Below, in pieces: positions 28,442-61,798 of a stretch of 64,000 bases of DNA. This DNA comes from Candidatus Omnitrophota bacterium. Lineage in GTDB: Bacteria; Omnitrophota; Gorgyraeia; B26-G9. The stretch lies in assembly GCA_043826565.1 (NCBI GenBank), contig JBDRPX010000019.1, positions 5,369 to 69,368 of the forward strand, written 5' to 3'. A program made the position numbers and the translations under genes. The notes beneath the pieces were generated by a model that ran no database searches, was not told the DNA's origin, and saw only the letters and a program-made list of their open reading frames with translations. Position 1 is the first letter of the stretch. Each line of letters begins with the position of its first letter.

Positions 28442-31400
28442 ATGTTTAAATCAAGAAAAATTACAAAGGTAATTGCTGGCATTGTTCTGCAGGTGTTTTT
28501 CTTTTCAAATTTTGCTTTGTGCGGGGATATGAATATGTCTCCTGATAGGGTGCGGAAATCAGATACCCTTGCCCCCCATATCGCGATAGGAATATCTTCG
28601 ATGCAGCAGATGTTTGCAGATACAGTATATCCTAGATGGTCAGCCGGCCGGCAGCAGCTTTCCGTAAATACCGGTGCTAGCGAGAAAGTTTCAACAATAC
28701 ATACCATAGATAATTTAAAACAAAAAGTTAAAGCCGGTAAATCAAAAGGAGTTATTTTGGTAGCCGGAGGCGCCGGATATATCGGAGGGCATACTGACCG
28801 TGCTTTAATGCAATCCGGTTATGATATTGTAATTTTGGATAACCTGGTAAATGGCCGGCGTTTTGTAGTTGAGCGTAATCAGGCTTATGCTCAGGATAAT
28901 GATAAAATTTGTGTTTTTGAACAAGCAGATTTAAAAAATAGTGAAGATGTTCTCAAAAAATATAAAGAAGCGGGAATACCGATTGTCGGAACAATTCATT
29001 TTGCGGCATACATTGAAGTGGGAGTGTCCGTAGAGCGTCCGTGTGTTTATGCTTTAAATAATATTATTAATACTCTCCGGCTGCTTTATGCCGCAAAGAA
29101 ATATGGAGTTAAAAATATTGTATTTTCTTCGTCAGCCGCTGTATATGGGACTCAGAAGAAAATGCCTCTAGAGGAAGGCCGAAGAAAGCACCCCACCAGC
29201 CCTTATGGATTTAATAAATGGGTTATGGAATTAATGATTAAATCATTCCAGAAGCTGGGTATGTCTTGGATTGCCTTGCGTTATTTTAATGCTGCCGGGG
29301 CTGCTTCCGACGGAGCTTTAGGAGAATCTCATCCTCTTCCGGATTCACATGTAATCAGAGCGGTTTTTCGTAGATTTTTAGATGGATTGGCCGCGGCAAT
29401 ATTCGGCCGGGATTATCCCACGGCTGACGGTACTTGTGAACGTGATTATATCCATGTTGAGGATTTGGCAGACGCGCATGTCCGGGCAATTGAAGCTTTA
29501 ATTAACGGAAAAAACCAGGAAGCAATTAACCGAGCATATAATGTCGGAACCGGTGAAGGTCTTTCTGTGTTGGAGATGATTGGTCTGATTACTAAACTAA
29601 TGGGTAAGGTAGTTAAAAAATTCTTTGTCCGGGAAGAAGCCCGTCGAGCTGGTGATCCGCCGGCTTTGGTCGCCGATTCCAGTGATATTCAAAGGAACCT
29701 GGGATGGAAAGCAATGCGTGATCCGCAGGTAATTGTAAAATCAGCGATTAAATGGGATATTTCTCCCCGTCAGCCGGAAGAAATTTATGAACCAAAGCCG
29801 CTTCCGAATATCTCAGAGTATGATGCTTATCAGGAAATCAAAAAAGTTTTAGCAGAAGATAAATTGCTGCCTTTGGGAGTAAAACTTTATATTAAGTGGA
29901 AACTTTTATGGGAGATTAGAACGGCATTAAAGCAGCGTTATGCTAAGGCGGTTAAGTTACTTAAGGCCAAACAGAAAATATATGCGGATAATTCTGACCT
30001 GCAGAAGATGATCAGTGCAAATCTTTTCTTGTTAGAAAAATATAAATGGATTAGCATTGCTGACTTAAGTTTGTTTGGTAAAGGATCAGCTTTTGAAAGA
30101 ATGGATTCTCTGCTTCGTTTTATCGAAAAAGTTCAATGGCCTAAATTAGATAAACTTCCGGAAGATAAAGCTGAGCGTGAGCAATATATTCTTCAAGATC
30201 CGATAGTTGCTGATTGTAAAGCCCAAGAAGCTGTAAAAAATACTTTTTCTTATGATCAGGGGCATGTATTTGATTATTGGCTTCAGTTAAGCAGTGAGGG
30301 AAAAAAGGAATTGTTGGGTTGTCTTACGGTGATTAATTTTGAAGAAGCGTTTAGGCTTTATCAGGAAAACGTAAAAAATAAACAGGATATTAAAGTTGAT
30401 TTCGAATCATTGCATGCGCCGTCAAATATGATGACTGCCGAAGAGGCATTGGCAAGTAATCAGCATTTAATGGCAAATGCTTTACGCATGGGTAAAGTCG
30501 CGGTTTATTTACTTGCCGGAGGCAGCGGAACGCGTTTAGATTATGACCATCCTAAAGGGATGTTTGAGTCCAGCCCATTAAGCGGAGCTTCTTTATATCA
30601 GCAGTTTGCGGATGAGGTTAGGGAGTTGGGTAATCGTTACGAAGCAAAAATACCTTTACTTGTGCAGACTAGTGAAGGCACGGATGAAGAAACAAAAGTA
30701 TTCTTTGCCAATAATAATGATTTTGGGATCCAGGATTCTACCCGGTTTGAACAGCAGCGGAGTTTTCCGGTATTTGATAAAGACGGAAAATTTATTCTGA
30801 CGACAAAGAGTTCTATTCAGATCGGCGGTTTTGGTCATGGAGATGTTACGGATTTTGTTTTACGGAAAAACGACGTGCGCGGCTGGCTGCAGGATAATTT
30901 TGGGACAAAATATGTACTCATGGTTCAGGTGGATAATCCGCTTGCGGTTAAGCAATTAGAGGCAATGTTAGCGGCGCATTTAAAGGATGAACAGCAGCGC
31001 GCATATAATGCTCCGGAAAATGCCGCACATATCAGTTATGGGCTTATTGAAAAACTGGCCCCGGATGACCGGTTGGGAAATCTGGCGGAAACTGAAGAGG
31101 GTTTGTGGCAGATGGTTGAGTATTCGGAAGTCGATCAGCTAAGTGAAGCGGCAAAAAAGAAGATTGTTTCTGATGTGGGCAGTCCGAATATTTTAATGAT
31201 AAGTTTAGACGGTTTAGATAAATTGCCGGCACTTTCAGTGCATGTTGACCGCGGCAAAAAAGTTTTTTCAATGCAGGCCGAGGGAAAGGTTCCCGGAGAT
31301 AAAATGGAAACATTTGTTTTTGATACCCGGGCTTATGGCGCGGCAGTGGTCTTACCTAGATACAGCTCGTTTGCTCCGACTAAGAAAAGAGAGCGTGATG

Positions 31401-33169
31401 CTGCCGGTGTTTTAGCTGATGAAAGCAGGCTTACTGCTGTGGCGGTGCAGTCATATCATCATGCTAAGCAGTTAGAGAAAAAAGGCTGGATAATGCCTGA
31501 TATAGTGGTAGAAGAGGTAGAGGGTAAGTTTGTCCAAAGATATTCGGCACTTGTAGAAATGACTCCGGAGTTTTCCATTGGACAGATTGGCAGTAACGGA
31601 TTTTTAAATCCAGATGGAGGAACTCTTTTCTTAAGCGGAAACAGAACACATATTGGAGATAATTGTCGGATAGAGGGTGGATTATATATTGATGTAAAAA
31701 AGACCGGGGGGCCGCTGGTTGGCGGCGTAGTAAATATCGGTGATAATGTAACTTTTAAAGGTAATGTAAAAATTACTGTGCATGGACATGGAGTAATTCA
31801 TATCCCTGCCGGAGTAACTGTTGATCATGATATTACGGTTTTTGACGGAGAAGTTGTAACCTTATTTAATGAGTCTTTTGAGGGAAGACGGAATAAGGAA
31901 GCGCTGCAGTTTGCCGAGATGATGTTTAAAGACAGCGCGTCTAGTCAGGCAGCGTATGAATTCTTAAAAACCAATAAAACCATTATTAATACTTTTGCCG
32001 GAACATTAAAGGTAGAGTTAGTTCCGGATACTGATCGTATTTCCTATTCCGTGATTATTTCCGCCCGGAATAAAAACAATGACGGCTGGCAAAGAGTCGG
32101 CAATCTGCCGTTTACTTATTTTAGTTCTTTTGAAAATGGCCGGCAAATGGTTACTTTTCCTGATGCAAATGATATTGTTGATGAAAAATGGGTGGGAGTG
32201 GTCGAAGATTATTTGATGATGTTTGCGCTTACTTTTGGAGCGTTTAACGGGGTGAGGTCGCAGGATATTGTTAATGACAGTATTGATCGTAATTTTCTTA
32301 TGCGTTTAGGCTATGATCAGGCAAATAAAATATCTAAGGCCGGAGAAAAGATTGAAGTGATCAGATTTAATCTGCGCGAATTTTCCGCGCTTATGGATCG
32401 AGAACGTTTAACCGAAAGCTCTGTACTGCCTCAACAGAAAAAACTAGGCAGAGTCGATGATGGTTTTGAGGTAGTCGATGAGGTAAAAGCAGTATTTATT
32501 GATATCGGCGGTGTTTTAATCGCGCATGATTTCAGGAAACAGGCAAAAAATCTTAAACAGGCAGCGGGAGATACTAAATATTCGGTTGAGTGGATTGAAG
32601 AACAGTTAAGAGATGAGAGATTTTTAGCGCCTTATGAAAGCGGGGTTATAGACACTCAGGAGTTTTATCGTAGAGTAAAAGCTTTGTTTGGTTGGAATAA
32701 GTTGAGCTATGAAGATTTTGTTAAAGCTTATTTGGATATATATAGTCCGAATCGGGATAATATTGCTGCCTTGCGCAGATTAAAATACGCAGGTTATGAA
32801 ATTTATCTGGTGACCAATGCTGGCCCTTTGGTAAAAGAATTTTGGATGGAAACTTTTCCGGAGATGCATAACTTAGCCGACGGTGTTATTGCTTCCTGTG
32901 AGGTCGGGGTAATGAAGCCGGTTAGAGCGATTTATAAAGGAGCATTAAGAGTTGCCGGAATAGCCGATCCCCGACAGGTTATTTATATTGATGATGTCTA
33001 TGCTAATATTATCGGTGCTGAATTAGAGAAGATGAATGCACTTAAGTATAATCGAGGAAGTGACCTGGGAAATCTGATAAACACTGAGTTTACGAGAATA
33101 ATAACGCATAGTACTGTGGCCCTGCAGCGTATTAAGCTGGCGGTCCAGCTGATCAGCCAGTCAATTTAA
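28442..33169 (+). CDS. 1575-aa multidomain protein: signal/anchor peptide + NAD-dependent UDP-sugar 4-epimerase (GalE-like) + eukaryotic-type UDP-sugar pyrophosphorylase (UAP1/AGX family) + left-handed β-helix + HAD-like hydrolase domain
   Basis: GalE region: 'VAGGAGYIGGHT' Rossmann motif and the 'YGFNKW' YxxxK catalytic motif. UAP1 region: 'VAVYLLAGGSGTRLDYDHPKGMFE' matches the UAP1/UGP 'L(L/N)GG(Q/L)GTRLG..PKG' signature. β-helix region: imperfect hexapeptide repeats around 'IGDNCRIEGG...VNIGDNVTFKGNVKI'. HAD region: 'VFIDIGGVLI', 'YLVTNAG', 'IYIDDV' HAD-like motifs. Confidence 0.75.
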   Translation: MFKSRKITKVIAGIVLQVFFFSNFALCGDMNMSPDRVRKSDTLAPHIAIGISSMQQMFADTVYPRWSAGRQQLSVNTGASEKVSTIHTIDNLKQKVKAGKSKGVILVAGGAGYIGGHTDRALMQSGYDIVILDNLVNGRRFVVERNQAYAQDNDKICVFEQADLKNSEDVLKKYKEAGIPIVGTIHFAAYIEVGVSVERPCVYALNNIINTLRLLYAAKKYGVKNIVFSSSAAVYGTQKKMPLEEGRRKHPTSPYGFNKWVMELMIKSFQKLGMSWIALRYFNAAGAASDGALGESHPLPDSHVIRAVFRRFLDGLAAAIFGRDYPTADGTCERDYIHVEDLADAHVRAIEALINGKNQEAINRAYNVGTGEGLSVLEMIGLITKLMGKVVKKFFVREEARRAGDPPALVADSSDIQRNLGWKAMRDPQVIVKSAIKWDISPRQPEEIYEPKPLPNISEYDAYQEIKKVLAEDKLLPLGVKLYIKWKLLWEIRTALKQRYAKAVKLLKAKQKIYADNSDLQKMISANLFLLEKYKWISIADLSLFGKGSAFERMDSLLRFIEKVQWPKLDKLPEDKAEREQYILQDPIVADCKAQEAVKNTFSYDQGHVFDYWLQLSSEGKKELLGCLTVINFEEAFRLYQENVKNKQDIKVDFESLHAPSNMMTAEEALASNQHLMANALRMGKVAVYLLAGGSGTRLDYDHPKGMFESSPLSGASLYQQFADEVRELGNRYEAKIPLLVQTSEGTDEETKVFFANNNDFGIQDSTRFEQQRSFPVFDKDGKFILTTKSSIQIGGFGHGDVTDFVLRKNDVRGWLQDNFGTKYVLMVQVDNPLAVKQLEAMLAAHLKDEQQRAYNAPENAAHISYGLIEKLAPDDRLGNLAETEEGLWQMVEYSEVDQLSEAAKKKIVSDVGSPNILMISLDGLDKLPALSVHVDRGKKVFSMQAEGKVPGDKMETFVFDTRAYGAAVVLPRYSSFAPTKKRERDAAGVLADESRLTAVAVQSYHHAKQLEKKGWIMPDIVVEEVEGKFVQRYSALVEMTPEFSIGQIGSNGFLNPDGGTLFLSGNRTHIGDNCRIEGGLYIDVKKTGGPLVGGVVNIGDNVTFKGNVKITVHGHGVIHIPAGVTVDHDITVFDGEVVTLFNESFEGRRNKEALQFAEMMFKDSASSQAAYEFLKTNKTIINTFAGTLKVELVPDTDRISYSVIISARNKNNDGWQRVGNLPFTYFSSFENGRQMVTFPDANDIVDEKWVGVVEDYLMMFALTFGAFNGVRSQDIVNDSIDRNFLMRLGYDQANKISKAGEKIEVIRFNLREFSALMDRERLTESSVLPQQKKLGRVDDGFEVVDEVKAVFIDIGGVLIAHDFRKQAKNLKQAAGDTKYSVEWIEEQLRDERFLAPYESGVIDTQEFYRRVKALFGWNKLSYEDFVKAYLDIYSPNRDNIAALRRLKYAGYEIYLVTNAGPLVKEFWMETFPEMHNLADGVIASCEVGVMKPVRAIYKGALRVAGIADPRQVIYIDDVYANIIGAELEKMNALKYNRGSDLGNLINTEFTRIITHSTVALQRIKLAVQLISQSI

Positions 33170-39859: not shown

Positions 39860-39943
39860 AGATCTTCCCGCGACTTGCATCAGCCCATCTATTATGGTAT
39901 ACTTTATTACTTTTTGTAACTGAAAGGAAAGTAGTGAAGCCGA

Positions 39944-42030
39944 AACGATCATACTTTTTCATAATATTTATTCTGGCCCAAATATTAATTGTAAGTCCTT
40001 TGCGCGGGGAGACCGGATGTTTATCTCCCGCGCTTAGCCTCAAAGATATATCAAATTGGGTTGCCTATTCTGTTGATAATCATCTTATTCCCAAAGATAC
40101 TGCTGCCGGAGAGCAAGATAGATTTAACGCAATAGCCCGGAATCCTCAGGAACTGCTGGCTTTGGTAAAACAGGAGATGGCTTTTTCCGGCAGTGCGGAA
40201 TTGCCGAAAGTTGTCGTCATGTCTGATTTTCACGGAGCAATAAAAATATTTTTAGATTACATCAGCGATGCCTTATCCCGTAAACTGGGAGTTCCGGTGG
40301 TGCTTGACCATACGGAATTTCCGCGGAAGTCAATACAGCAGCAGCTTGCGGAACAGGGAATTGATATCCGTTCGATAAAGAATTTCCAATTTTATCTGCT
40401 GGGAGATTTCATGGATCGGGGTGAATACGGAGTCAAATGTTTTCTGGCCGCGGAAGAACTTGATTCTCTGGGGCTGGCCAAAATTGTTTTTGGTAATCAT
40501 GATGTTTTTTCTATACTTGCCTGTGTGGGATATCATCTGCCTATATATAAAGGATATAATTTTTACGGACATTATGAATCCGAACAGCTGGTGTTTTCCG
40601 AACACTGGGATGATTTGGAAATCAGCCCAGACCGTTTTGGCTGGTGGCAGGAAAAACTTGTTGAATATATTACGGAGCAAAAAAAACTGCAGGATAACTT
40701 TATTATAGTAAATAACACTCAGGTATCATTCGGGCAGATTCGCGAACAATTAAAAGACATTTGTAAACAGGTGCAGTCCCAGGGAGGGATACCCCAGGAA
40801 CAGATGGAAGTTCTGGGTGATTTAGCGGGATTTTATTTCGGCACGACAGATGTTTATACCGGGTTTAATGCGGTCGGGATGATGTCGGTCCAGTGGTGGG
40901 AAGAACGGCTTGCCAGTGTGGATAAATTTTGTTCTGAAGCGATAGATAAGGAACTTATGCATCAGTTATCCATCTGGGGGCATATTAAACAGTGTATTGA
41001 AGAGGTGATCCCGGTTGTCGGCAGACAATTGCAGGAGAAAAAAGCTCAAGGTAAGTGGTGGTGGCAGGTTTTTAATGATATTAATGATCAGGCTTATAGT
41101 TCTCCGGAATGGTACGCGCAGGACTGGATTTTTCATAACGGATGGGGAGGAAGCGTGTTTAAAGAATTAAATGAGCTTGACTCTGATTTAGAAGATCAAA
41201 AATGGAATGCTTCGAATTTCTTTCGTAATCCTTATCTTAAAAAGTTTACTCGTTTTGGGCATGATAAATTTACTCTTGCCCGGGAAGACCCCTACGGGTT
41301 TTTTTATTCTCATGGATGGTTTCCGGTTAATCGGCAAAGCGGGGTTCCGGGGTTTGTTTATCAAAACACCATATATTCCGGGGAGTATTTATTTTCCGGG
41401 CTGCAAATAGTTGAACAAGATTTTCGTTCGGTTCTGGCGATGCGGATGGATGATAGGCAGGATGATGCGGAAGTTACCCGTCAGCTTAGAGACTCGGTTA
41501 GCCTGGTTATTTCCTGGTACGCGGATAAGACCATTCGTATCAAGCCGGCGCACATTCGTGCTTATTTGGACGGGTTTGGATTAGAAGCTATTCAAAAATC
41601 AATCGGCCGGCATGTCTGGTTTACTTGTCATAATCCGTTGAATACTTTAATTCCCCTGGGAATAGGCTTTAGTATGCAGGAAGGTGATTATGTCCATATT
41701 TCTGTTGATAAAGGGATGAGCTGGGAAAAATTCCGAGATGTCGGCGGATATGTGGAAGTCGATGCCTCTTCCGGAATTGTTTTACGCGGCTATAGCGGCA
41801 ATGATTTTACTCAGATTATTGATACCCCTCCGGCAATGGTTATGTCAAAGGATCAATATGGCCAATGGTACCATGAGTCGCTTTGGGAAAATAAATCAGT
41901 TAGCCGGGAGACTCTTTTACCGATAGCTGCTGCCCAGCTTGCTGAAAAATTGTATGCTCCGGAAGTTGCCGGTTCAGTAGAGGCTAAAAACCTGCCGCCG
42001 GCTTTATCCCTTATTGAGCAGGCAATTTAG
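39944..42030 (+). CDS. fbp: fructose-1,6-bisphosphatase class 3 (metallophosphoesterase-type, Firmicutes Fbp/YydE-like) with an N-terminal signal/anchor peptide
   Basis: 'VMSDFHG', 'LLGDFMDRGEYG' and 'VFGNHDVFSILACVG' align with B. subtilis Fbp 'FVSDLHG', 'VVGDIYDRGPQP' and 'QWGNHDVLWIGAYSG'. C-terminal matches include 'NTIYSGEYLFSG' vs 'WTGEYSSLFG'. Likely GTG start at 39944 (RBS 'aggaaag'), giving 'MKPKRSYFFIIFILAQILIVSPLRGETGCLSP'. Confidence 0.7.
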
Positions 42031-42263
42031 CGTGTTTTGCCCCCAAGCTTAAATATTAGTAATTTTAAAATGAGTTGATTTTCTAATACCTTCCTACACA
42101 ATAAGTTACATCTGCGAAAAAAATCAAAGCCACCTTGCGAGATTTTATTTTATATGGTATACTTTTAGGAATTTTGTAAACTTTTTAAAGCTGATTTTTA
42201 AACATTACTAAAATAAGTTTGGCAAATTAAGCGATTTTGTAACTATGAAAGGAGTAGCGCCAT

Positions 42264-45200
42264 ATGTTTATGTCTTCAAAAACCAACCTGTTTTTCAAAG
42301 TCATTTCTTTTATTATCATGCAGTCGTTTTTAATCACTAATATTTCCTTTGCTGCGGGAGGTAATTTTTTTGTTAATTCAGAAGAAAGGGGTTGTTTGTC
42401 ACCAGAGATGCAGATACCTAACCAAATAATGATGAGAGATTTTAAAAACCAGACGATTATTAAAGGAGATTTATCCCAACTTACTTCTATTTTACCTAAA
42501 GCTATCATTGGTGAAGATGAGGCATATGAACAGTTAAAACGTTTAGCTTTAACTACTCCTGAAACTTTGATCGAATATTTTGAAGCTCAGTTACCTGAGG
42601 CTATTGAAGCGATGACAGAATCTATGTTTGGTAAGGGATTTGGTTATGATGTGCGCGGAAATGCCTGGGAAGTAGCTTCCGGTGAAGTAGATTTAACTCC
42701 TTTGAGTTGTTATTTGATCGGAAAAGCGCTGGCCACAAGATATGCCGAACAGGGAGAAGGTGTCGAATTTACCGGAGACCAGAGAATACATACGCCGATG
42801 TTAAGACTGGCATTATCTCTCGGAGCGCAGTCTGCCGGAGCAAAGCTGTTTTTTAGTGATGAGATTGTCGGTACCGGTGAACATGGGATATTATCCGGAG
42901 AGAATCCTAATAATGTTAAGGTTATGGGGCAGGTTTCCGGATCTCACGGTATTCCGGCAAAGAATGGTTTTAAACTAAAAGTAATAGATCCTAAAACCGG
43001 CCAGTTAGAACCGCTGTATGGGAAAGAATTAGCTAATCTGTATACTTTGATTAAAAGCGGGAATTTAAGAACAGTAGAAAGTTTTATTCCGCTGACAGAG
43101 CAGAATGATCTTATTGAAAAAGCAGTAGATGCTTATGATAAGACATTACCCCAGGTGTCAGTTGATCAGCCGGTAGTTTTTGATTGCCGTAATTCAGCAT
43201 TAACTACAGTATTAAAAAAGATAGTTGAAAAAAGAGGATTGAAGAATGTATTCTGGCTGAATGATACCCCGGATGGAAGAATGCCGGGTGGAATTTGGGA
43301 CCCTTCTAAACCGGAAGCTTTGGTTGCTTGCCAGAATAAAGTTCTGGAGATTAATGCTTCAGGACAGTTTAAGAAAAAAGCCATAGGATTTGTGTTTGAT
43401 GGAGATGGAGACCGGGCGGCAGCGATTTTAGAGGATGGAAGAGCAGTTCCTTCTTTTGAAATGACCCTTCCTTTTTATCAGAGATTGTTCTCTGATCCGA
43501 TTAATCAGGAAGTAATGAATACACTGATTAATGCCGGATTTGATAAGATATGGGCAATAACCGATATTCGCGCTAATTCCCGTTTAAAAAATATGTTTCG
43601 CAGGTATTCTGACTGGATAACCGGTAAATATATTACTACGGGATATCCGCCGCAAAGAGCGGTTGTACGTCATATATTTAGTGAAATAGAAAAATATGTT
43701 GCCGCCAACCCAAGCAAGTTTGATGCTGGTTTTGCGGAAAAGCTTAGACATTTTAAGACCACATATTTTACGGCAGAAGCATCCGGCCATCAGTTTTTTC
43801 ATATTTGTCCAAATTATCCGGAAAAAGTAATTGATGCGGGTATCGCCGTAGCTTTTAATTTATTGCATATTAAAGAAACAATTCAGGATGTAGAAGCTAA
43901 GGATGAAAAAGTCGGATTATCGGCAGGACAAGATTCTTATTTACTGACAGAACTTTTTGATCATTTTCCTCCGGCGATCAGTTCCGGAGAAGTCAGGATC
44001 GTTGTGCCGAATTCAATTAAGTTTGAAGTAACCGATGCGATGATTGTTAAATTAAAAGAAAAATATGCGGATGATTTTTTACCGACCCCTCTGGGAACAG
44101 TTGATATGGGGGATTACTTATTGCAGGATATGGATGAAGGAAAAGTAGAAGTTGCCGGATTTTTGGGGTTACTTAAGACCGGCGGCAGCTTTTTGTTTCG
44201 CGTATCAAATACCGGTGAGCAGTGTACATTGATATTTGAAGGCGGAGATATTCAGGAGCTTATTAGGCTGATGGAAGAAATGAAACAGTTGGTTTTAGAT
44301 ACTAAAGCTGAATTTGAAGCAGACGCATCAACTGCGGAAGCGGCAAAAAATATTAAAGTCGATGATTTGGAAAAGGAAATTCAAATGACAATTGAAGCGG
44401 CTGAAGAAATAACTCCGGCAGCTCCGATAGTTATTAATACTGCTACTCTACAGGCTGATTCTTTAGGTGCTTTAAGCCTGAGTAATGGCGAAATTGCCGA
44501 TGTTAATAGGACGATGGAAGGTATCCAAAGAACAATGCAATTTGAAGATAATGATGTGACTACCGAGCTTGGCCGTCAGAGGTTGTTAAAGAACTGGCGC
44601 GGTTGGGTGTTTGGAGAACAGGAATGGGCAAACCAGGGAATTGAAGATACTGTTACGGTAGCTCAGAAAGTTCGTGATGATAATCCTGAGGCATTTGTGG
44701 TTGTTGGTGTCGGCGGATCAGATCAGACAACAAAGGGAATTGTTAATGCCAATATCAGTACTCAGCATAATCTGCTTTCTAAAGAAGCTAGAGGCGGGGC
44801 TCCGATGTTATTCTACACCGGTGATGGTTTTGATCCGAATAGTACCTATGATACATTACAGGTTCTTGATGAAAAAGGGATTTTGTTTAAAACAAAATTC
44901 AATATAATTTCTAAATCCGGAACTACCGGGGAAACAGCGCATGCTTTCCTGGTTATTAAAAGTTATCTTGAAGTTAGATTAGAACAGCTTGCTGTGCAAT
45001 ACGCGGCACGTCAGATAAAGGACAAAGACTTAGAAGCTATGGGTTTAACTGCTAAAGATCTAGAGAAAGTAACATTGAATTATACAGTAAAATTAGATGC
45101 CGGAGAAGAAGCTGTCACAGAAGAAACTTTCCGTACCGGGCGTTTCTTTGTCTTTACCACAGGCTTAAATGATAAGAGCGCATTGTATAATTATGTTCAG

Positions 45201-46103
45201 CTTATTCGTGAACAGGCAGGTGATGATGTGTTTGGATTATTGCCGGTTCCGGATGGTACCGGAGGAAGATACTCTTTTGGTACAGCCGTGGGTATGCTGG
45301 CGATGGGAGTAATGGCAAATACAAGCAAGGGAGAAACTCCGGAAAGCAGAATAAGACAGGTATTAGAGGCGATAAAAGATGTGCGTAACGAAATTTTAAA
45401 CGGTAGTGTTGAAGGTGATAATGTTCCTTCATTTGCTATTGCCCGGGCTAATTATTTAGCAGAAAAACACGGCTTAGGAACAGTGGCGATATATCCGTTT
45501 GCAAATATGTTACAGGAATTTGCTAATCTGATGATGCAGCTTTCTACAGAATCAATTCGGGAAAAGGGTCAGGGACAGAATATTCTTCCGTTGGTTGGTC
45601 CTTCACGTAACCACTCTGTAGTGAATGGAATTATTAATGGGCCCAGAGATACCATCATATGTTTTATTGAAGTTGCTGCTTTTGACCCGGCAAAAGATGC
45701 AACTATTACTGGTGGAAAAGTACTTGGCGGAAGCTTAATGCAGCTGGAGCAATTAAAACAGTCTGATATCCAGAAGGCATCTTTGGATGGGACTCTTAAG
45801 GATGCGATTGAAAAGGGTGTGCCGGCTTACAAGATTACAATTCCGGCTTTAACTCCGTATTATGTAGCTAAGTTAATTGCTTATTTTGAGCATGAAGTAG
45901 CTATTGAAGGAATGCTTAGAGGACTTAGAGAGCCTTCGAATGCAGAAGGTGTTTATGTTGATTTAACCTATTTGCAGTCTAGTGTTGAAGGATATAAGGC
46001 TCAGACCCGTGCTATCTTAAGTGAGATAAGAGCAGCTAAGTTTGGACCTGTCCAGACATCAGCTAATCGTGACATGGTTAGTGTAGTCGGTAGTTCCATA
46101 TAA
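42264..46103 (+). CDS. 1279-aa fusion: signal peptide + α-D-phosphohexomutase (PGM/PMM/AGM family) + glucose-6-phosphate isomerase (PGI)
   Basis: Phosphohexomutase region: active-site-loop-like 'VSGSHGIPAKNGFK' and Mg-binding 'FDGDGDRAA'. PGI region: SIS 'VVVGVGGSDQT' and signature 'PDGTGGRYSFGTAVGM'. N-terminal 'MFMSSKTNLFFKVISFIIMQSFLITNISFA|AGG...ERGCLSPEM'. Confidence 0.75.
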   Translation: MFMSSKTNLFFKVISFIIMQSFLITNISFAAGGNFFVNSEERGCLSPEMQIPNQIMMRDFKNQTIIKGDLSQLTSILPKAIIGEDEAYEQLKRLALTTPETLIEYFEAQLPEAIEAMTESMFGKGFGYDVRGNAWEVASGEVDLTPLSCYLIGKALATRYAEQGEGVEFTGDQRIHTPMLRLALSLGAQSAGAKLFFSDEIVGTGEHGILSGENPNNVKVMGQVSGSHGIPAKNGFKLKVIDPKTGQLEPLYGKELANLYTLIKSGNLRTVESFIPLTEQNDLIEKAVDAYDKTLPQVSVDQPVVFDCRNSALTTVLKKIVEKRGLKNVFWLNDTPDGRMPGGIWDPSKPEALVACQNKVLEINASGQFKKKAIGFVFDGDGDRAAAILEDGRAVPSFEMTLPFYQRLFSDPINQEVMNTLINAGFDKIWAITDIRANSRLKNMFRRYSDWITGKYITTGYPPQRAVVRHIFSEIEKYVAANPSKFDAGFAEKLRHFKTTYFTAEASGHQFFHICPNYPEKVIDAGIAVAFNLLHIKETIQDVEAKDEKVGLSAGQDSYLLTELFDHFPPAISSGEVRIVVPNSIKFEVTDAMIVKLKEKYADDFLPTPLGTVDMGDYLLQDMDEGKVEVAGFLGLLKTGGSFLFRVSNTGEQCTLIFEGGDIQELIRLMEEMKQLVLDTKAEFEADASTAEAAKNIKVDDLEKEIQMTIEAAEEITPAAPIVINTATLQADSLGALSLSNGEIADVNRTMEGIQRTMQFEDNDVTTELGRQRLLKNWRGWVFGEQEWANQGIEDTVTVAQKVRDDNPEAFVVVGVGGSDQTTKGIVNANISTQHNLLSKEARGGAPMLFYTGDGFDPNSTYDTLQVLDEKGILFKTKFNIISKSGTTGETAHAFLVIKSYLEVRLEQLAVQYAARQIKDKDLEAMGLTAKDLEKVTLNYTVKLDAGEEAVTEETFRTGRFFVFTTGLNDKSALYNYVQLIREQAGDDVFGLLPVPDGTGGRYSFGTAVGMLAMGVMANTSKGETPESRIRQVLEAIKDVRNEILNGSVEGDNVPSFAIARANYLAEKHGLGTVAIYPFANMLQEFANLMMQLSTESIREKGQGQNILPLVGPSRNHSVVNGIINGPRDTIICFIEVAAFDPAKDATITGGKVLGGSLMQLEQLKQSDIQKASLDGTLKDAIEKGVPAYKITIPALTPYYVAKLIAYFEHEVAIEGMLRGLREPSNAEGVYVDLTYLQSSVEGYKAQTRAILSEIRAAKFGPVQTSANRDMVSVVGSSI

Positions 46104-50911: not shown

Positions 50912-51314
50912 TTTTCCTGAAGGTCAGCGCCCCTTTCGGGTGATTGCCGAGCGGCTTCGGATAAGTGAAGCTGCTTTATTAAAAAAGATCGGGGAGTTAA
51001 AGCGCAGCGGTGTTATCCGCCGCATCGGAGCGACGATCAATTCCCAGAGCATTGGTTATAAAAGTATTCTTATCGCGGCCTGTGTTGATTTAAAAAACCT
51101 GGAGTCAATAGTCTCATTCATTAATGCTTCCGAGAGTGTTTCACATAATTACTTACGCGACTGCGAATATAATATATGGTTTACTTTAAGTAAGCGGACA
51201 AAAAAAGAGATTACTGATTTTATCCGGAAATTTAAAAATAAAAAAGGCGTGCGGAAAGTTTTAGAATTGCCTGCGGAAAAAACAATTAAAATAAAAGCGG
51301 AATTTGTCTTATGA
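50868..51314 (+). CDS. siroheme decarboxylase subunit (AhbA/NirD-L family, AsnC-like HTH)
   Basis: N-terminal HTH 'KQLLEILQSDFPEGQRPFRVIAERLRISEAALLKKIGELKRSGVIRRIGA' typical of NirD/NirL/AhbA/B. Confidence 0.65.
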   Translation: MNQKEKQLLEILQSDFPEGQRPFRVIAERLRISEAALLKKIGELKRSGVIRRIGATINSQSIGYKSILIAACVDLKNLESIVSFINASESVSHNYLRDCEYNIWFTLSKRTKKEITDFIRKFKNKKGVRKVLELPAEKTIKIKAEFVL

Positions 51315-54762: not shown

Positions 54763-55941
54763 ATGGCCACAGTTATTCTTAAACCTGATCAAGGACAACG
54801 GATTTACTCCGGATATCCCCGGGTATTTAATTATCAGATTAGCCAGATAAAAGGTGATTTTAAGCCGGGAGATATTGTTTCGGTGACAAATTCCCGCAGT
54901 GAATTTGTCGGCCGGGGATATATAAATCCCGGGTCTAATATTCCGGTACGTATTTTAACTCATGATGATGAGCCGATAAATAAAGAATTCCTGACCCGCC
55001 GGATAAAACAGGCGATTGATTTCCGCAAGAATATTATTTCTGAAGATACAAATGCTTACCGCCTGATTTTTTCCGAATCTGATTTTCTTTCCGGGCTTAT
55101 TGTGGATGTCTACGGAGACTGCTTAGTCATCCAGATGCTCACTTTGGGTATGGAGAATCAAAAGCAGGATATTATTGATATCTTAAAAGAGTTTATCAAG
55201 CCTAAAGGTATTTATTTGCGTAATGATACGCCGCTGCGTTTACAGGAGAATTTATCTTTAGAAAAAAAAGTTGTTTGCGGAAGATTTGGGACCAAGCTGG
55301 AAATAAGAGAGAACGGCGTGCCTTTTGTCGTGGATATCGAAAACGGACAAAGGACAGGATTTTATATTGACCGCCGCGATAACCGTCTTTTACTAAAAGA
55401 GATAACTAAAGGGAAAACAGTACTTGATTGTTTTTGCTATAGCGGAGCATTTTCTGTATATGCCAGCCGCTACGGCGCGTCTAAGGTTGTGGGTATTGAT
55501 ATTTCCGCGCATGCCTTGAAATTCGCTAAAACAAATATGAAGCTTAACCGAATTAACTCCCGGCGTTATGAATTTAAAGAAGATGATGTTTTTAATGCTT
55601 TAAGGGATCTTTGTGACCGCCGGGCTAAATTCGATGTGGTAATGCTTGACCCGCCCAGTTTAGTAAGCTCTAAAAATAAAATTGATAGCGGATTGCGCGG
55701 ATACCGGGAACTGAATTTAAGGGCTTTAACTCTTTTAAATAGAGGAGGCATTTTGGTAACATCAAGCTGTTCTTACCCTGTGCATGACCAGCTTTTTAAA
55801 CAGGTTTTGCAGGAAGTCGCGGATAAAGAAGGCCGGATGCTGCGGGTGATAAAATCCGGAAGCCAGTCTCCGGATCATCCCAAGTTCTTGAATATAAAGG
55901 AAAATTCTTACCTTAAATGCTTGGTCTTAGAGGTGTTGTAA
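54763..55941 (+). CDS. rlmI: 23S rRNA m5C1962 methyltransferase RlmI-like (PUA + class I SAM-MTase)
   Basis: 'RTGFYIDRRDNR', 'FDVVMLDPP' and 'RGGILVTSSCS' align with E. coli RlmI 'KTGYYLDQRDSR', 'FDVIVMDPP' and 'EGGILLTFSCS'. Confidence 0.8.
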   Translation: MATVILKPDQGQRIYSGYPRVFNYQISQIKGDFKPGDIVSVTNSRSEFVGRGYINPGSNIPVRILTHDDEPINKEFLTRRIKQAIDFRKNIISEDTNAYRLIFSESDFLSGLIVDVYGDCLVIQMLTLGMENQKQDIIDILKEFIKPKGIYLRNDTPLRLQENLSLEKKVVCGRFGTKLEIRENGVPFVVDIENGQRTGFYIDRRDNRLLLKEITKGKTVLDCFCYSGAFSVYASRYGASKVVGIDISAHALKFAKTNMKLNRINSRRYEFKEDDVFNALRDLCDRRAKFDVVMLDPPSLVSSKNKIDSGLRGYRELNLRALTLLNRGGILVTSSCSYPVHDQLFKQVLQEVADKEGRMLRVIKSGSQSPDHPKFLNIKENSYLKCLVLEVL

Positions 55942-55946
55942 TTTGC

Positions 55947-56474: not shown

Positions 56475-56504
56475 TGTTTTACTCTTGGTTTAGCAGCAAC
56501 TAGG

Positions 56505-60374: not shown

Positions 60375-60486
60375 CCTTAATCTGTTTTTATCATTGCGCT
60401 TCACTTTGTTCGCGGAATGAATTAATTAGTACACATCATTGCGCTTCACTTTGTTCGCGGAATGAATTAATCTGTTTTTATCATTT
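60375..60486. repeat. tandem direct repeat (2 x 35 bp 'cattgcgcttcactttgttcgcggaatgaattaat', separated by 10 bp, flanked by 'taatctgtttttatcatt' on both sides)
   Basis: Read directly from the sequence. The distal flank encodes the last six residues and the stop codon of ctpA. Confidence 0.6.
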
Positions 60487-61798
60487 CACCGTAAATTTTT
60501 ATGCCGTGCATTAAATGCAGTGCCGCTCTCAGCTGGCTGTCATTTTCCAGCCATTCTCTTTGTTCTTTTTCCTTTAATTCTTTTTCTATTTCCTGCTCAT
60601 TTTTTCCCTGAGGGTTTTCCATATCCTTAAAAACATCTTTCTTTTCGTCTTTTTTTTCCTCAGCAGGTTTAGTCGCGATTTCCCGTTCGACAACAACATC
60701 AGGAATAATTCCGGCTTCATTAATTGTTCTGCCGGAAGGAGTGTAATACTTGGCGGTAGTTAAACGCAGCGCGGACCCGTCACGCAAAGGGATGACTGTC
60801 TGTACTGAGCCTTTACCGAATGATTTTGTACCGACAATAATACCTCTTTTATTGTCTTGTATCGCTCCGGCGACGATTTCGGAAGCGGAAGCGGAACCGC
60901 CGTTTATCAGCACAATAAGCGGAATATTTTTAAAGCCTGTTTTTCCTGTGGAATGATATTCTAAGTCATGCTCTTTATAGCGGCCTTTTGTGTAAACAAT
61001 AAGGTCTCCGGTCGGTAAAAATTCACTGGCTGCTTCCACAGAAGAGATCAGCAGTCCTCCGGGATTATTACGCAGATCAAAGATCAGGCTGTCCATACCT
61101 TGTTTTTCCAGCGTGGATAAAGCGGAGTCCAGATCGTGTTTTGTTTTTTCAGAAAAATCAACGAGTTTAATATAGCCGATATTGTTTTCGAGTATTTCCG
61201 CTTTACGTACAGCCTTGATGTTAATGACGGCCCGGATAATCGTAAAATCCTTTAGTTCTTCTTCATTTTCGCGTATTATCGTCAGTGTAACCGGAGTTCC
61301 CGGTTTACCGCGCATCTTTTTTACGGCTTCGCCAAGAGTAATATCCCGGGTAATTTCTCCGTCTATTTTTACAATTCGATCCATTGCTTCGAGCCCGGCT
61401 TCATCTGCCGGAGTTCCGTCGAGAGGAGTGATGATTGTTAAGAGGCTGTCTTTAAGGGTAATCTCAATGCCTAAACCCCCGAATTCTCCTTCGGTTTCCA
61501 CGCGGAGTTCATTATACATTTCCGGATCCATGAATTGGCTATAGGGATCAAGAGTGGAAAGCATGCCTTTTAAAGCTCCGTAAATAACATCTTTCGGAGT
61601 TACCAAATCCACATAATCATGCTGGATCGCGGTGATTACATCGGAGAAGAGCTCTATTTGACCGTATATTTCATCTTTAGCCGGATTCGTGCGTGCAAGC
61701 ACAGTGCTTTGGAATATTAAAACTAAAGATAAACACAAACAAACTAACAAAGAAAATTTTCTTGAAAACATTTTTACCCCCTTTAATGAGTGTTTCAC
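60467..61798 (-). CDS. ctpA: carboxyl-terminal processing protease (S41, PDZ-containing)
   Basis: Signal peptide. PDZ domain. 'GGSASASEIVAGAIQD' S41 active-site region and 'TAKYYTPSGR'. Confidence 0.8.
   Translation of the reverse strand: MKHSLKGVKMFSRKFSLLVCLCLSLVLIFQSTVLARTNPAKDEIYGQIELFSDVITAIQHDYVDLVTPKDVIYGALKGMLSTLDPYSQFMDPEMYNELRVETEGEFGGLGIEITLKDSLLTIITPLDGTPADEAGLEAMDRIVKIDGEITRDITLGEAVKKMRGKPGTPVTLTIIRENEEELKDFTIIRAVINIKAVRKAEILENNIGYIKLVDFSEKTKHDLDSALSTLEKQGMDSLIFDLRNNPGGLLISSVEAASEFLPTGDLIVYTKGRYKEHDLEYHSTGKTGFKNIPLIVLINGGSASASEIVAGAIQDNKRGIIVGTKSFGKGSVQTVIPLRDGSALRLTTAKYYTPSGRTINEAGIIPDVVVEREIATKPAEEKKDEKKDVFKDMENPQGKNEQEIEKELKEKEQREWLENDSQLRAALHLMHGIKIYGEMIKTD

What the first reader, a model, noticed from the sequence alone, without database searches (positions are those of the whole stretch)
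39944..42420. Shared post-signal 'GCLSP' motif on two exported enzymes (related C...SP in a third)
After the hydrophobic h-region, the FBPase reads '...LRGETGCLSPALSL' and the PGM-PGI fusion reads '...SEERGCLSPEMQI'. The 1575-aa protein has 'FALCGDMNMSP'. A conserved Cys-Leu-Ser-Pro directly after a signal peptide on otherwise unrelated enzymes suggests a lineage-specific sorting or anchoring signal: for example a non-canonical lipidation site, a sortase/rhombosortase-like tag, or an intramembrane protease site. This is not a canonical lipobox.
Basis: seen in the sequence. Interest (0 to 1): 0.7.

Follow-up and report, generated by a model that had tools for sequence, protein, structure and literature searches.

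The report
Two-ended protein tag in Omnitrophota
The shared 'GCLSP' is the visible tip of a lineage-specific address label, made of a conserved N-terminal helix, a short L-S/A-P peptide and a matching C-terminal tail ending in A/S-Ile, that a group of Omnitrophota bacteria put on many unrelated enzymes and on their giant protein; the conserved cysteine is not essential, so it is not a lipid-attachment site.

Summary
GCLSP is present in both proteins as reported, at window 40015 and 42390. A shared 5-mer alone is weak evidence: 14% of shuffles give one.

The real feature is larger. The window comes from a Candidatus Omnitrophota MAG. Three sugar-pathway enzymes in it carry the same three elements:
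- a signal-like N-terminal helix with a mid-helix Gln (35 of 40 sequences);
- a post-helix peptide, x-L-[S/A]-P-x-φ-x-φ-(7)-F, with L and P invariant and Cys in only 23 of 40;

The three enzymes are a class-III-FBPase-like phosphoesterase, a PGM-PGI fusion and a GalE-UGPase-HAD fusion.

A profile of the N-terminus alone found 28 N-terminal matches among 1.84 billion proteins. Every named one is Omnitrophota or PVC. The matches span many unrelated families, and all 15 complete new ones end in [A/S]-I/L.

The giant SecA-domain protein of the same genome carries the same N-module. Other lineages replace both ends together.

Lipobox, sortase-type, Tat, prepilin, T9SS-CTD, GG-leader and intein signatures all fail.

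Best reading: a new bipartite targeting or assembly tag linked to the giant-protein machinery. Which side of the membrane the cargo ends up on is unresolved.

The parts
39934..42030 (+). Gene 1: 698-aa metallophosphoesterase resembling class III fructose-1,6-bisphosphatase (tagged cargo)
   Evidence: ORF and GTG start. Pfam Metallophos only. 100% identical to an NCBI 'MAG: metallophosphoesterase [Ca. Omnitrophota]'. AF2 core pTM 0.75. The top Foldseek PDB hit is 9a7j_A, an integrative model titled 'F16PC-GLPD', E 1.1e-6, aligned over the full length. Reading F16PC as class III FBPase is my own knowledge of the UniProt mnemonic.
39934..40002 (+). Gene 1 N-module, part 1: basic n-region plus hydrophobic helix with central Gln (MKPKRSYFFIIFILAQILIVSPL)
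   Evidence: Alignments A2 and A3. Hydropathy.
40018..40068 (+). Gene 1 N-module, part 2: post-helix motif CLSPALSLKDISNWVAY
   Evidence: AF2 pLDDT below 50 for residues 16-68, so it sits on a flexible linker and is not part of the enzyme fold.
42007..42027 (+). Gene 1 C-terminal tail SLIEQAI-COOH
   Evidence: AF2 pLDDT below 50 for residues 677-698.
42264..46103 (+). Gene 2: 1279-aa phosphoglucomutase plus glucose-6-phosphate isomerase fusion (tagged cargo)
   Evidence: Pfam PGM_PMM_I/II and PGI; NCBIfam PGI and PGM models below their cutoffs.
42264..42353 (+). Gene 2 N-module, part 1: MFMSSKTNLFFKVISFIIMQSFLITNISFA (Gln20 in mid-helix; S-F-A c-region)
42393..42443 (+). Gene 2 N-module, part 2: CLSPEMQIPNQIMMRDF
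   Evidence: The whole N-module scores 66 bits against profile A3.
46080..46100 (+). Gene 2 C-terminal tail SVVGSSI-COOH
28442..33169 (+). Gene 3: 1575-aa GalE plus UTP-glucose-1-P uridylyltransferase plus HAD phosphatase fusion (tagged cargo)
   Evidence: TIGR01179 galE 325 bits, PF01704 UDPGP, PF00702 HAD.
28442..28522 (+). Gene 3 N-module, part 1: MFKSRKITKVIAGIVLQVFFFSNFALC (Gln17)
28565..28615 (+). Gene 3 N-module, part 2: TLAPHIAIGISSMQQMF, the true counterpart of CLSP...
   Evidence: Alignments A2 and A3. 57.5 bits.
28520..28543 (+).
   Evidence: It falls in gapped, unconserved columns of A2 and A3.
33146..33166 (+). Gene 3 C-terminal tail QLISQSI-COOH
60467..61798 (-). S41 C-terminal-processing protease with a PDZ domain and an ordinary signal peptide. 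It is only a candidate reader of the C-tails; no link has been shown.
   Evidence: Pfam Peptidase_S41, PDZ and CtpB_N. Its own N-terminus scores about 3 bits against the N-module profile built from A2.

Best explanation
The motif is one element of a clade-specific, two-ended targeting or assembly tag.

**Shown**
- A subset of proteins in this Omnitrophota lineage has three features:
  1. a basic n-region plus a sequence-conserved hydrophobic helix (…φIAFφLIQxFLL…, central Gln, small-residue c-region);
  2. after a 5-20 residue linker, the peptide x-L-[S/A]-P-x-φ-x-φ-x4-φ-x3-F;
  3. the extreme C-terminus φ-φ-x-[Q/E/S]-[A/S]-I.
- In the AF2 model of the window phosphoesterase, the only protein modelled, both peptides sit on flexible linkers outside the catalytic fold.
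- The cargo proteins are unrelated to one another.
- The genome's giant SecA-domain protein carries the same N-module.
- Other lineages replace the N-peptide and the C-end together.

**Inferred**
- The helix is a specialised signal or signal-anchor that brings these proteins to the cytoplasmic membrane.
- The two terminal peptides are handles read by a shared, co-evolving partner.
- That partner is most plausibly the SecA-like preprotein-binding motor and TM bundle of the giant protein.
- The tagged enzymes are therefore recruited to the same membrane-associated machinery as the giant protein, and possibly translocated by it. Here they form a complete FBP→F6P→G6P→G1P→UDP-Glc→UDP-Gal route.
- They would be the stand-alone counterparts of the enzyme domains that other Omnitrophota fuse into giant proteins.

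Which side of the membrane the catalytic domains end up on is not settled.
For: **Conservation and specificity**
- 14 of 27 orthologues of the phosphoesterase keep the motif. P32 is invariant across all 15 aligned sequences.
- In the 40-sequence alignment L and P are invariant and Gln is present in 35 of 40.
- The N-only profile against 1.84e9 representatives gave 29 hits at E ≤ 1e-3, 28 of them at residues 1 to about 75.
- Every named hit is Omnitrophota or PVC.

**Cargo diversity**
- Aminotran_5, SAM methyltransferases, DAO+HAD, PGM+PGI, GalE+UDPGP+HAD, the phosphoesterase, and many coiled-coil or TM proteins with no Pfam match.

**The C-tail is independent of the query**
- 15 of 15 complete new hits end in [A/S]-I/L.
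- In 445 kb and 706 six-frame segments, 13 of 14 complete type-1 profile hits end in [AS]I, against 8 untagged segments.
- Fisher p = 1e-12 on the smaller set.

**Protein-level selection**
- Synonymous codons differ, and so do the stop codons and the downstream DNA.

**Distinct from ordinary signals in the same genome**
- OMPs, the TonB receptor, S41 and lipoproteins score 11 bits or less.

**Same genome**
- P0042, P0052, P0069 and L034_6457 are tagged.
- The giant (at least 7891 aa) has the N-module (28.6 bits).
- In the giant the module is followed by SecA PP_bind and Helicase_C, then about 11 TMs, then SLT.

**Concerted replacement of both ends**
- L005: N-peptide 'DLRxxAxxEN' with a shared C-terminal domain ending YREIVSSE, on 3-4 unrelated neighbouring proteins.
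- P0029/30: C-end D[ST]FI.
- P0015/16/18: N 'ALRIPL' with C-end [TS]x-L.
- P0025-27: C-end VLxAA.

**Flexible tags**
- AF2 pLDDT is below 50 at residues 16-68 and 677-698.

**Literature**
- Giant Omnitrophota proteins contain PGM, GPI, FBPase, ROK, HAD and methyltransferase domains.
Against: - No partner or processing gene was identified. Neighbours of the tagged genes are housekeeping genes.
- No whole genome was available, so co-occurrence of the tag with a SecA-like giant could not be tested.
- The topology evidence conflicts.
  - Charges around the helix (n-region +2 to +4, neutral or acidic after it) and AxA-like c-regions look like an ordinary cleavable Sec signal.
  - The cofactor needs of the cargo argue for a cytoplasmic location. 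So does the SecA-like ATPase that directly follows the module in the giant, and so do the K/R-rich flanks of the TM hairpins in P0052 and P0042.
- TM parity between the N-motif and the C-tail is inconsistent across members.
- No internal copies of either peptide occur in the giant ORFs that contain the same enzyme domain.
- Many counts include orthologues, which are not independent.
Confidence: 0.4

Rival explanations
1. Ordinary Sec export followed by a second sorting step. The helix is a cleavable SPase I signal peptide. The mature N-terminal peptide and the C-terminal tail then act in the periplasm as sorting signals. Readers could be a PDZ domain (Ctp/Prc, or GspC of the T2SS-like system) or an outer-membrane translocon. 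The metabolic enzymes would be secreted or surface-displayed and would act on prey-derived metabolites.
For: - The n/h/c organisation, the positive n-region, the small residues at the end of the helix and the acidic or neutral early mature region all fit a Sec signal.
- The C-tails [S/T/Q]-x-I/L resemble PDZ ligands (PDZ classes from my own knowledge).
- An S41/PDZ protease lies in the window.
- Tagged P0055 follows a GspJ-like pseudopilin gene.
- West-Roberts et al. predicted extracellular glycolytic domains and conserved T2SS-like loci near giant genes.
- From my own knowledge, Chlamydia (also PVC) secretes glycogen-metabolism enzymes.
Against: - Cleaved signal peptides are not normally conserved in sequence across unrelated families (Gln in 35 of 40).
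- The cargo needs NAD, UTP, SAM, PLP or FAD, and there is no twin-arginine motif for folded export.
- In the giant the same module directly precedes a Walker-A SecA-like ATPase with no TM for about 1000 residues.
- The loop after the N-motif in P0052 has a net charge of about +8.
Confidence: 0.25
2. A cytoplasmic-face metabolon built by head-to-tail docking. The helix is an uncleaved membrane tether. The N-peptide of one protein binds the C-tail of another (or of itself). The stand-alone enzymes would be chained into a non-covalent equivalent of a giant multi-enzyme protein that channels FBP to UDP-hexoses.
For: - The N and C ends change together between lineages while the helix stays conserved.
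- Both peptides sit on flexible linkers.
- The three window cargos form one contiguous pathway.
- The same domains are covalently fused in other lineages.
- The cofactor needs fit the cytoplasm.
- The tail of the window phosphoesterase, 'PPALSLIEQAI', echoes its N-motif, 'SPALSLKD'.
Against: - No pairing was predicted or measured.
- The positive n-region argues against an N-out, C-in anchor.
- One common N motif and one common C motif would give unordered chains.
- Many cargos are not enzymes of a single pathway.
Confidence: 0.15
3. The C-tail is a degradation or processing signal. It could be an ssrA/MuA-like degron for ClpX or a substrate tail for Prc/Ctp. It would set the turnover of a regulon whose N-termini are similar for a separate reason.
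For: - The tails end in nonpolar A/S-I, and in ...LQAA...LAAA or ...LIAA in other lineages.
- From my own knowledge, these resemble the ssrA (LAA) and MuA (…KKAI) classes of ClpX signals.
- S41/PDZ is present.
Against: - It does not explain the strict coupling with the N-module or the concerted change of both ends.
- No tmRNA gene was found in the window or in the 19 loci scanned, so the comparison with the tmRNA tag could not be made.
Confidence: 0.08
4. No dedicated function. The shared ends would be relics of common ancestry or of recombination that spreads 5' and 3' gene ends among paralogues, as in variable surface-protein families.
For: Similar promoter-like TATGGTATACTT elements lie upstream of two of the genes.
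Against: - Synonymous sites, stop codons and flanking DNA differ.
- The motif is kept at protein level across orthologues of 41-50% identity and across more than 20 families.
- L and P are invariant.
- The TATGGTATACTT element looks like a generic extended -10 promoter; a similar one lies upstream of an untagged gene at 51175.
Confidence: 0.05
5. One reading: the Cys is a non-canonical lipidation or covalent anchoring site, or the motif is a sortase/rhombosortase-type tag.
For: - Cys is the commonest residue before L-S/A-P (23 of 40).
- It lies shortly after a signal-like helix.
Against: - Cys is replaced by T, Y, H, L or M in 17 of 40 sequences, including the window's own third protein.
- There is no lipobox (ETG-C, ERG-C), and the Cys lies 5-20 residues past the helix.
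- Canonical lipoboxes occur in other proteins of the same genome (window 56505: LCGC; L036_319: MAGC).
- Sortase-type tags need a C-terminal TM helix plus a basic tail, which is absent.
Confidence: 0.02

Closest known systems
Omnitrophota giant proteins ('Archaeovorins'; West-Roberts et al. 2023 bioRxiv 10.1101/2023.11.21.568195; 2026 bioRxiv 10.64898/2026.06.07.730766)
   Same: - Same phylum and the same enzyme repertoire: PGM, GPI, FBPase-like, ROK, HAD, methyltransferases.
- N-terminal signal peptide or TM features.
- The giant of this very genome carries the same N-module.
- The phosphoesterase domain sits inside giant ORFs in other lineages.
   Different: - Here the proteins are stand-alone (300-1600 aa).
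- They are defined by a conserved N-terminal helix and peptide plus a 6-7 residue C-terminal tail. Neither paper describes these.
- No SecA domain or TM bundle is present in the cargo.
Genome-wide protein-sorting tags: LPXTG/sortase, PEP-CTERM/exosortase, GlyGly-CTERM/rhombosortase, PGF-CTERM/archaeosortase
   Same: A short conserved signature on many unrelated proteins of one genome, restricted to a lineage, implying a dedicated reader.
   Different: - Those tags are C-terminal: motif, then TM helix, then a basic cluster.
- Here the hydrophobic helix is N-terminal, the C-tail has no TM, and no sortase-like enzyme was found.
T9SS cargo (Sec signal peptide plus C-terminal domain)
   Same: - Two-ended logic: an N-terminal signal plus a C-terminal sorting element on diverse enzymes.
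- One Omnitrophota lineage (L005) uses a shared 225-270 aa C-terminal domain.
   Different: - In the window's lineage only about 7 C-terminal residues are shared, with no detectable domain.
- The phylum differs, and no T9SS components were seen.
Post-signal sorting peptides: Bacteroidota lipoprotein export signal, Lol-avoidance +2 rule, CsgA N22 targeting to CsgG
   Same: A short peptide just after the signal sequence decides the final destination.
   Different: - Those act on lipoproteins or on a single substrate family.
- Here there is no lipidation, the signal helix itself is conserved, and the peptide is coupled to a C-terminal tail.
Accessory SecA2 export systems (mycobacteria, Listeria)
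   Same: A second SecA-like motor dedicated to a subset of proteins, including cytoplasm-type enzymes.
   Different: - SecA2 is a free protein with no conserved substrate tag.
- Here the SecA-like motor is embedded in a giant membrane protein, and the link to the tagged set is inferred only.
PTS1/PTS2 targeting of glycolytic enzymes to glycosomes; PKS/NRPS docking domains; Chlamydia secreted glycogen enzymes
   Same: Functional analogies only:
- terminal peptides (C-terminal tripeptide, N-terminal nonapeptide) that relocate sugar-pathway enzymes;
- matched N/C docking peptides that order megasynthase subunits;
- a PVC bacterium exporting sugar-metabolism enzymes.
   Different: No sequence or mechanistic relationship has been shown.

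Membership tests
Bacterial lipoprotein signal (Lgt/LspA) | Lipobox [LVI][ASTVI][GAS]-C at the end of the h-region | tested here: not met
   The residues before Cys are E-T-G and E-R-G. The Cys lies 5-20 residues after the helix. Canonical lipoboxes are present elsewhere in the genome.
Bacterial lipoprotein signal (Lgt/LspA) | Invariant +1 Cys | tested here: not met
   Cys in 23 of 40; T 7, Y 6, L 2, H 1, M 1.
Sortase / exosortase / rhombosortase sorting tags | C-terminal motif followed by a TM helix and a basic tail | tested here: not met
   No hydrophobic segment in the last 40 residues of most members. The tail is the very C-terminus.
Sec / SPase I signal peptide | Positive n-region, hydrophobic h-region, small residues at -3/-1 | tested here: met
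   By inspection of 40 N-termini: K/R-rich n-region, h-region of 18-24 residues, c-regions such as SFA, SQA, AWAG and SLA. No SignalP-type predictor was available.
Sec / SPase I signal peptide | Cleavage and export of the downstream domain | not testable with these tools
   This needs N-terminomics or topology reporters. The indirect evidence conflicts.
Tat signal peptide | S/T-R-R-x-F-L-K twin-arginine motif | tested here: not met
   n-regions read KPKR, KSRK, KKR and similar. Only P0039 has RRR.
Type IV prepilin / class III signal | G↓[FM]xxxE after a short basic leader | tested here: not met
   No G-F/M…E5 pattern is present. A true pseudopilin in the same genome (L036_7696, 'KGLTLIEILV') differs and scores below 0 bits.
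T9SS C-terminal domain | A 70-100 aa conserved Ig-like CTD | tested here: not met
   All-vs-all BLAST of the last 200 aa of 19 tagged proteins finds no shared domain across the tagged set. The best single pair reaches E 2.8e-4; all other pairs are above E 0.04. Only the last ~7 residues are shared.
Double-glycine leader / C39 peptidase substrates | LSxxELxxIxGG with cleavage after GG/GA/GS | tested here: not met
   The position before the conserved Phe is G/D/M/A/V/S/T/N and more; there is no GG. The peptide follows a hydrophobic helix rather than the N-terminus.
Intein (block A 'CLS…') | A Hint fold of about 130 aa or more, nucleophile at position 1, C-terminal HN plus C/S/T | tested here: not met
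   Only about 17 residues are conserved. Position 1 may be Y, H, L or M. The C-terminus is …A/S-I.
PDZ-binding C-terminal motif | [S/T]-x-φ-COOH (class I) or φ-x-φ-COOH (class II) | tested here: inconclusive
   Tails such as TSI, SSI, ESI, DSFI, DTFI, ETAL and NTGL fit class I. QAI, LAI and HAI do not fit strictly. No binding test was possible.
Class III fructose-1,6-bisphosphatase (for the 698-aa enzyme) | Full-length similarity to Fbp/YydE (PF06874) | tested here: inconclusive
   Pfam and NCBIfam give only Metallophos, or nothing. The PDB sequence search gives nothing. The Foldseek top hit is the F16PC model 9a7j_A, E 1e-6, 13% identity, TM 0.32-0.34.
Omnitrophota giant-protein class | Shares the N-terminal module with a giant SecA-domain protein of the same genome | tested here: met
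   L034:13526 (at least 7891 aa) scores 28.6 bits at residues 10-68. It carries SecA_PP_bind, Helicase_C and SLT.

The most novel reading that the evidence does not exclude
Omnitrophota may have their own protein-targeting pathway. It would consist of a distinct class of signal peptides (Gln-containing helix, L-S/A-P peptide and a C-terminal tail) read by the SecA-like motor and TM bundle embedded in the giant protein. That pathway would relocate cytoplasm-type metabolic enzymes, here a whole FBP→UDP-galactose route. The destination could be a specialised compartment, the cell surface or the prey. Alternatively, the enzymes could be chained head-to-tail into a non-covalent 'giant protein'. Either version would be a sorting or assembly system with no known counterpart in bacteria.
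Probability: 0.25. Interest if true: 0.9.

Novelty: new variant of a known kind. Interest (0 to 1): 0.72.

Why it matters
**A testable handle on open questions.** Omnitrophota are abundant, ultra-small, probably predatory or host-dependent bacteria with the largest known proteins. How these proteins, and the glycolytic-type domains they carry, are localised is an explicit open question in the two papers that describe them. A simple sequence signature offers three things:
- It marks roughly 8 of 95 genes in this genome, including the giant itself.
- It defines the 'accessory protein' set that the divergent SecA domains were speculated to handle.
- It gives a peptide pair to test in binding, topology and proteomic experiments.

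**A possible annotation gap.** Upper-glycolysis steps may look 'missing' in Omnitrophota annotations. For example, G6P isomerase was called in 67 of 176 genomes. The enzymes here are divergent, fused and tagged, and the PGI and PGM domains in this window score far below the family cutoffs.

Tried and rejected
**Searches that gave nothing useful**
- The third homologous-protein search, with the 40-sequence N-terminal alignment, returned one hit. The word index fails on short, low-complexity queries.
- The metagenome scan with the enzyme family added only about 4 new loci.
- The PDB sequence search with the family profile gave no hit.
- The L005 C-terminal domain has no Pfam or PDB match.
- No tmRNA was found in the window or in 19 loci, so the degron comparison was impossible.
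- An exact look-up of the window-end protein found it not on record.
- The look-up of P0001 only re-found part of the window.

**Tests that were negative or inconclusive**
- Giant ORFs containing the same enzyme domain have no internal copies of the N-motif or C-tail, so these are not domain-junction motifs.
- TM parity between the N-motif and the C-tail, from a crude hydropathy scan, gave mixed results.
- Conserved-neighbour analysis found only tandem CheY-like receivers and EF-G. No candidate processing enzyme emerged.

**Explanations rejected on sequence grounds**
- Lipobox, sortase-type tag, Tat, prepilin, GG-leader/C39, intein block A, DNA repeat and shared-promoter cassette.

**Literature**
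- No paper in the library links Omnitrophota with a sorting signal or a terminal motif.

Full report
**1. Observation**

The window is from a Candidatus Omnitrophota MAG. The 698-aa protein is 100% identical to an NCBI 'MAG: metallophosphoesterase [Candidatus Omnitrophota bacterium]' on a 75.6-kb contig.

- Both 'GCLSP' strings are real. One is at 40015-40029 in the 698-aa protein (gene 39934..42030, GTG start). The other is at 42390-42404 in the 1279-aa protein (42264..46103).
- They are the only in-gene occurrences in six frames.
- Four of the five codons differ at synonymous positions, so this is not a DNA repeat.
- A shared 5-mer on its own is weak evidence. 14% of shuffles of the 22 post-helix windows of this window share some 5-mer.
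- 'FALCGDMNMSP' exists in the 1575-aa protein. It lies in a variable linker. The homologous motif there is 'TLAPHIAIGISSMQQMF' at 28565-28615.

**2. What the proteins are**

- The 698-aa protein is a metallophosphoesterase (Pfam Metallophos only). Its AF2 model has a core pTM of 0.75. Its only significant PDB fold match is the full-length integrative model 9a7j_A, titled 'F16PC-GLPD' (E 1e-6). I read F16PC as class III FBPase from my own knowledge of the UniProt mnemonic. 'FBPase-like' is therefore reasonable but unproven.
- The 1279-aa protein is a PGM + PGI fusion.
- The 1575-aa protein is GalE + UDP-glucose pyrophosphorylase + HAD phosphatase.
- Together they cover FBP→F6P→G6P→G1P→UDP-Glc→UDP-Gal. 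This pathway reading is my inference.

**3. The motif in orthologues**

All 27 homologues of the phosphoesterase that carry a name are Omnitrophota.

- The 14 closest keep a basic n-region, a hydrophobic helix with a central Gln, a linker, and then x-L-[S/A]-P-x-φ-x-φ…QxGF.
- The residue before Leu is C, Y, H or T.
- The Pro is invariant across 15 aligned orthologues.
- More distant orthologues have other post-helix peptides, such as 'ALRIPL', 'ALRSMSANK' and 'DLRxxAxxEN'.

**4. Breadth**

A 58-column profile of 16 N-termini was searched against 1.84 billion representative proteins.

- It gave 29 hits at E ≤ 1e-3. 28 of them lie at residues 1 to about 75 of their protein. One, P0045, is a repeat-protein false positive.
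- Named members are all Omnitrophota, Omnitrophica or 'PVC group'. One 72-aa fragment is binned as Heimdallarchaeota.
- The carriers are unrelated. They include a class-V aminotransferase, SAM methyltransferases, a DAO+HAD protein, and many proteins with no Pfam match that look coiled-coil-rich or carry TM segments.
- In the 40-sequence alignment L and P are invariant. The mid-helix Gln is present in 35 of 40, the Phe 15 residues after the Leu in at least 70%, and Cys in 23 of 40.
- Ordinary secreted proteins of the same genome (OMPs, TonB receptor, S41 protease, lipoproteins, a pseudopilin) score 11 bits or less. The tagged proteins score 29-77 bits.

**5. The missed half: a C-terminal tail**

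- All three window proteins end in …SLIEQAI, …QLISQSI and …SVVGSSI.
- The 14 close orthologues end in …[E/Q/H/Y][Q/A][A/S/G][I/V].
- All 15 complete new proteins found by the N-terminus-only profile end in [A/S]-I (14) or S-L (1).
- In the window the three N-module proteins are exactly the three six-frame segments of at least 100 aa that match φ-x-[QESTLGH]-[AS]-I$.
- Across 445 kb of non-redundant Omnitrophota DNA, 13 of 14 complete type-1 hits end in [AS]I. Only 8 of about 690 other segments do. Fisher p = 1e-12 on the smaller set, with orthologue redundancy acknowledged.
- Codons, stop codons and downstream DNA differ.
- No extended C-terminal similarity exists in this lineage.
- AF2 gives pLDDT below 50 to residues 16-68 and 677-698 of the phosphoesterase. 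Both peptides therefore hang on flexible linkers outside the fold.

**6. Both ends change together**

- In locus L005 the N-termini seen for three of four adjacent large proteins share the same kind of helix (…LIVIQTFLFT…): a PGM-PGI fusion, an unknown 1042-aa protein and an AlaDH-phosphoesterase fusion. The fourth is 5'-truncated at the locus edge.
- Their post-helix peptide is different (DLRxxAxxEN). All four share a 225-270-aa C-terminal domain ending YRE[IV]V[SA]SE.
- PGM homologues P0029 and P0030 have 'sLRxx…' and end in D[ST]FI.
- P0015, P0016 and P0018 have 'ALRIPL' and end in [T/R]-x-L.
- The ROK fusions end in VLxAA.
- The helix is therefore phylum-wide, while the two terminal elements are lineage-specific and coupled.

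**7. Link to giant proteins**

- The same genome holds further tagged proteins on other contigs: P0042, P0052, P0069 and L034_6457 (Logan sample SRR26275510; NCBI tags ABII88_*).
- Next to P0042, which is flanked by PilZ genes, lies a gene of at least 7891 aa. Its N-terminus carries the same module (28.6 bits; …KIIAAVIIQAFLVTDIVWAAG…SYLAPTANINKGIFRTKF).
- That module is followed, with no hydrophobic segment for about 1000 residues, by a Walker-A/SecA PP-binding/Helicase_C region. Next come about 11 TM helices, then an SLT lytic transglycosylase.
- In other lineages the phosphoesterase domain sits inside ORFs of more than 7234 aa and of 2623 aa.
- Glycolytic enzymes are fused into a 3050-aa protein in L033.
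- The literature describes such giants, their sugar-metabolism and methyltransferase domains, their signal peptide or TM content, and their divergent SecA domains. It speculates that those SecA domains export 'the giant protein itself, or accessory proteins'. It does not describe this tag.

**8. Mechanism**

*Shown.* There is a two-ended, protein-level, lineage-restricted signature on unrelated proteins and on the giant.

*Inferred.* The helix is a specialised signal or signal-anchor. The two peptides are handles for a shared co-evolving reader, most plausibly the giant's SecA-like machinery.

*Unresolved: which side of the membrane.*
- Local features fit a cleavable Sec signal. The n-region is positive, the c-region is AxA-like, and the early mature region is neutral or acidic.
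- Three points argue that what follows the helix is cytoplasmic:
  - the cargo's cofactor needs;
  - the SecA-like ATPase directly after the module;
  - the K/R-rich flanks of the TM hairpins in P0052 (+6 on both flanks) and P0042.

I therefore give 0.40 to 'tag for the giant-protein-associated pathway'. The rivals get:
- 0.25 for plain Sec export with periplasmic or T2SS/PDZ sorting;
- 0.15 for a cytoplasmic head-to-tail metabolon;
- 0.08 for a C-terminal degron;
- 0.05 for a non-functional relic;
- 0.02 for Cys lipidation or a sortase-like tag.

**9. Comparison with known systems**

Lipobox, sortase/exosortase/rhombosortase, Tat, prepilin, T9SS-CTD, GG-leader and intein signatures were each checked against their defining features and failed (see the membership table). 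The n/h/c layout of a Sec signal is met by inspection. PDZ-ligand likeness is partial. The closest relatives in kind are genome-wide sorting tags and the Omnitrophota giant proteins themselves.

**10. Verdict**

The general interpretation, a lineage-specific sorting signal, is supported. The Cys-centred chemistry is not. The feature appears undescribed and gives a concrete handle on the biogenesis of Omnitrophota giant-protein machinery. I rate it a new variant of a known kind (protein-sorting or assembly tags), interest 0.72.

Noticed in passing
L034:13526-22640 (same genome as the window, Logan SRR26275510): A giant gene of at least 7891 aa. It starts with the same N-module as the tagged enzymes. 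There is then no TM for about 1000 residues. Next come SecA PP_bind (421-520) and Helicase_C (722-777), about 11 TM helices (1070-1490) and an SLT domain (2439-2532). PilZ genes flank the tagged gene just upstream.
   Followed up: partly
L005:23-12448: Four adjacent large genes share a 225-270-aa C-terminal domain at 51-55% identity, ending YRE[IV]V[SA]SE. Three of them are a PGM-PGI fusion, an unknown 1042-aa protein and an AlaDH-phosphoesterase fusion. The domain has no Pfam or PDB match. It is a domain-sized counterpart of the short tail seen in the window.
   Followed up: partly
L033:1-14704: A 3050-aa protein combines cupin-type GPI, TIM, PGK and enolase domains. Next to it lie a 1641-aa unknown protein and a 1567-aa PGM plus cofactor-independent phosphoglycerate mutase fusion. 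Glycolysis is encoded here as megaproteins.
   Followed up: no
L036:7696-9967: Tagged protein P0055 lies immediately downstream of a GspJ-like pseudopilin gene. Upstream of that are an OMP ending in …GKF and a TPR protein. This may be the T2SS-like locus reported near giant genes.
   Followed up: no
L001:7515-8700; L002:392-1550; L003:7695-8850; L015:8417-9300: Two to three tandem single-domain CheY-like receiver genes sit directly upstream of the phosphoesterase gene in several related genomes.
   Followed up: no
window 39893-39904, 42153-42164, 28337-28350, 51175-51186: An extended -10-like element, TATGGTATACTT, lies upstream of genes 1 and 2. TGTGGTAAACTT lies upstream of gene 3, and a one-mismatch copy lies upstream of an untagged gene. 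This is probably the generic promoter consensus, and each tagged gene seems to have its own promoter.
   Followed up: partly
window ~55900-56500: Gene orientation switches from + to - here, and GC skew flips from about +0.2 to about 0 or negative at the same point. This could be a replication terminus or origin region.
   Followed up: no
window 13142-18916 and 2189-2977: A complete chemotaxis cluster (CheW, CheC, CheD, CheB, CheA, CheC/CheX) and a prepilin peptidase (A24) are present. An earlier MAG study of the phylum reported no motility genes.
   Followed up: no
P0053 residues ~114-145: This tagged 769-aa protein has an HEAAH (HExxH) zinc-protease-like motif immediately after its second hydrophobic segment. 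It is a possible membrane metalloprotease among the tagged set.
   Followed up: no
P0025-P0027, L005:8678-12448, P0009/P0014: The phosphoesterase occurs fused to a ROK sugar kinase, to alanine dehydrogenase, or to a roughly 400-aa unknown N-terminal domain in different lineages.
   Followed up: no
window 42264 vs 42270: NCBI annotates the PGM-PGI protein from the third codon (1277 aa, P0028). The ORF allows 1279 aa. The start codon is uncertain by two residues.
   Followed up: no
L034:2755-4605: A 616-aa protein has an FTLTN-type signal helix, an 'AAPAALQSSIV' peptide and the C-terminus …LCEQA. It scores only 1 bit against the profile. It may be a degenerate or variant member of the tagged set.
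   Followed up: no
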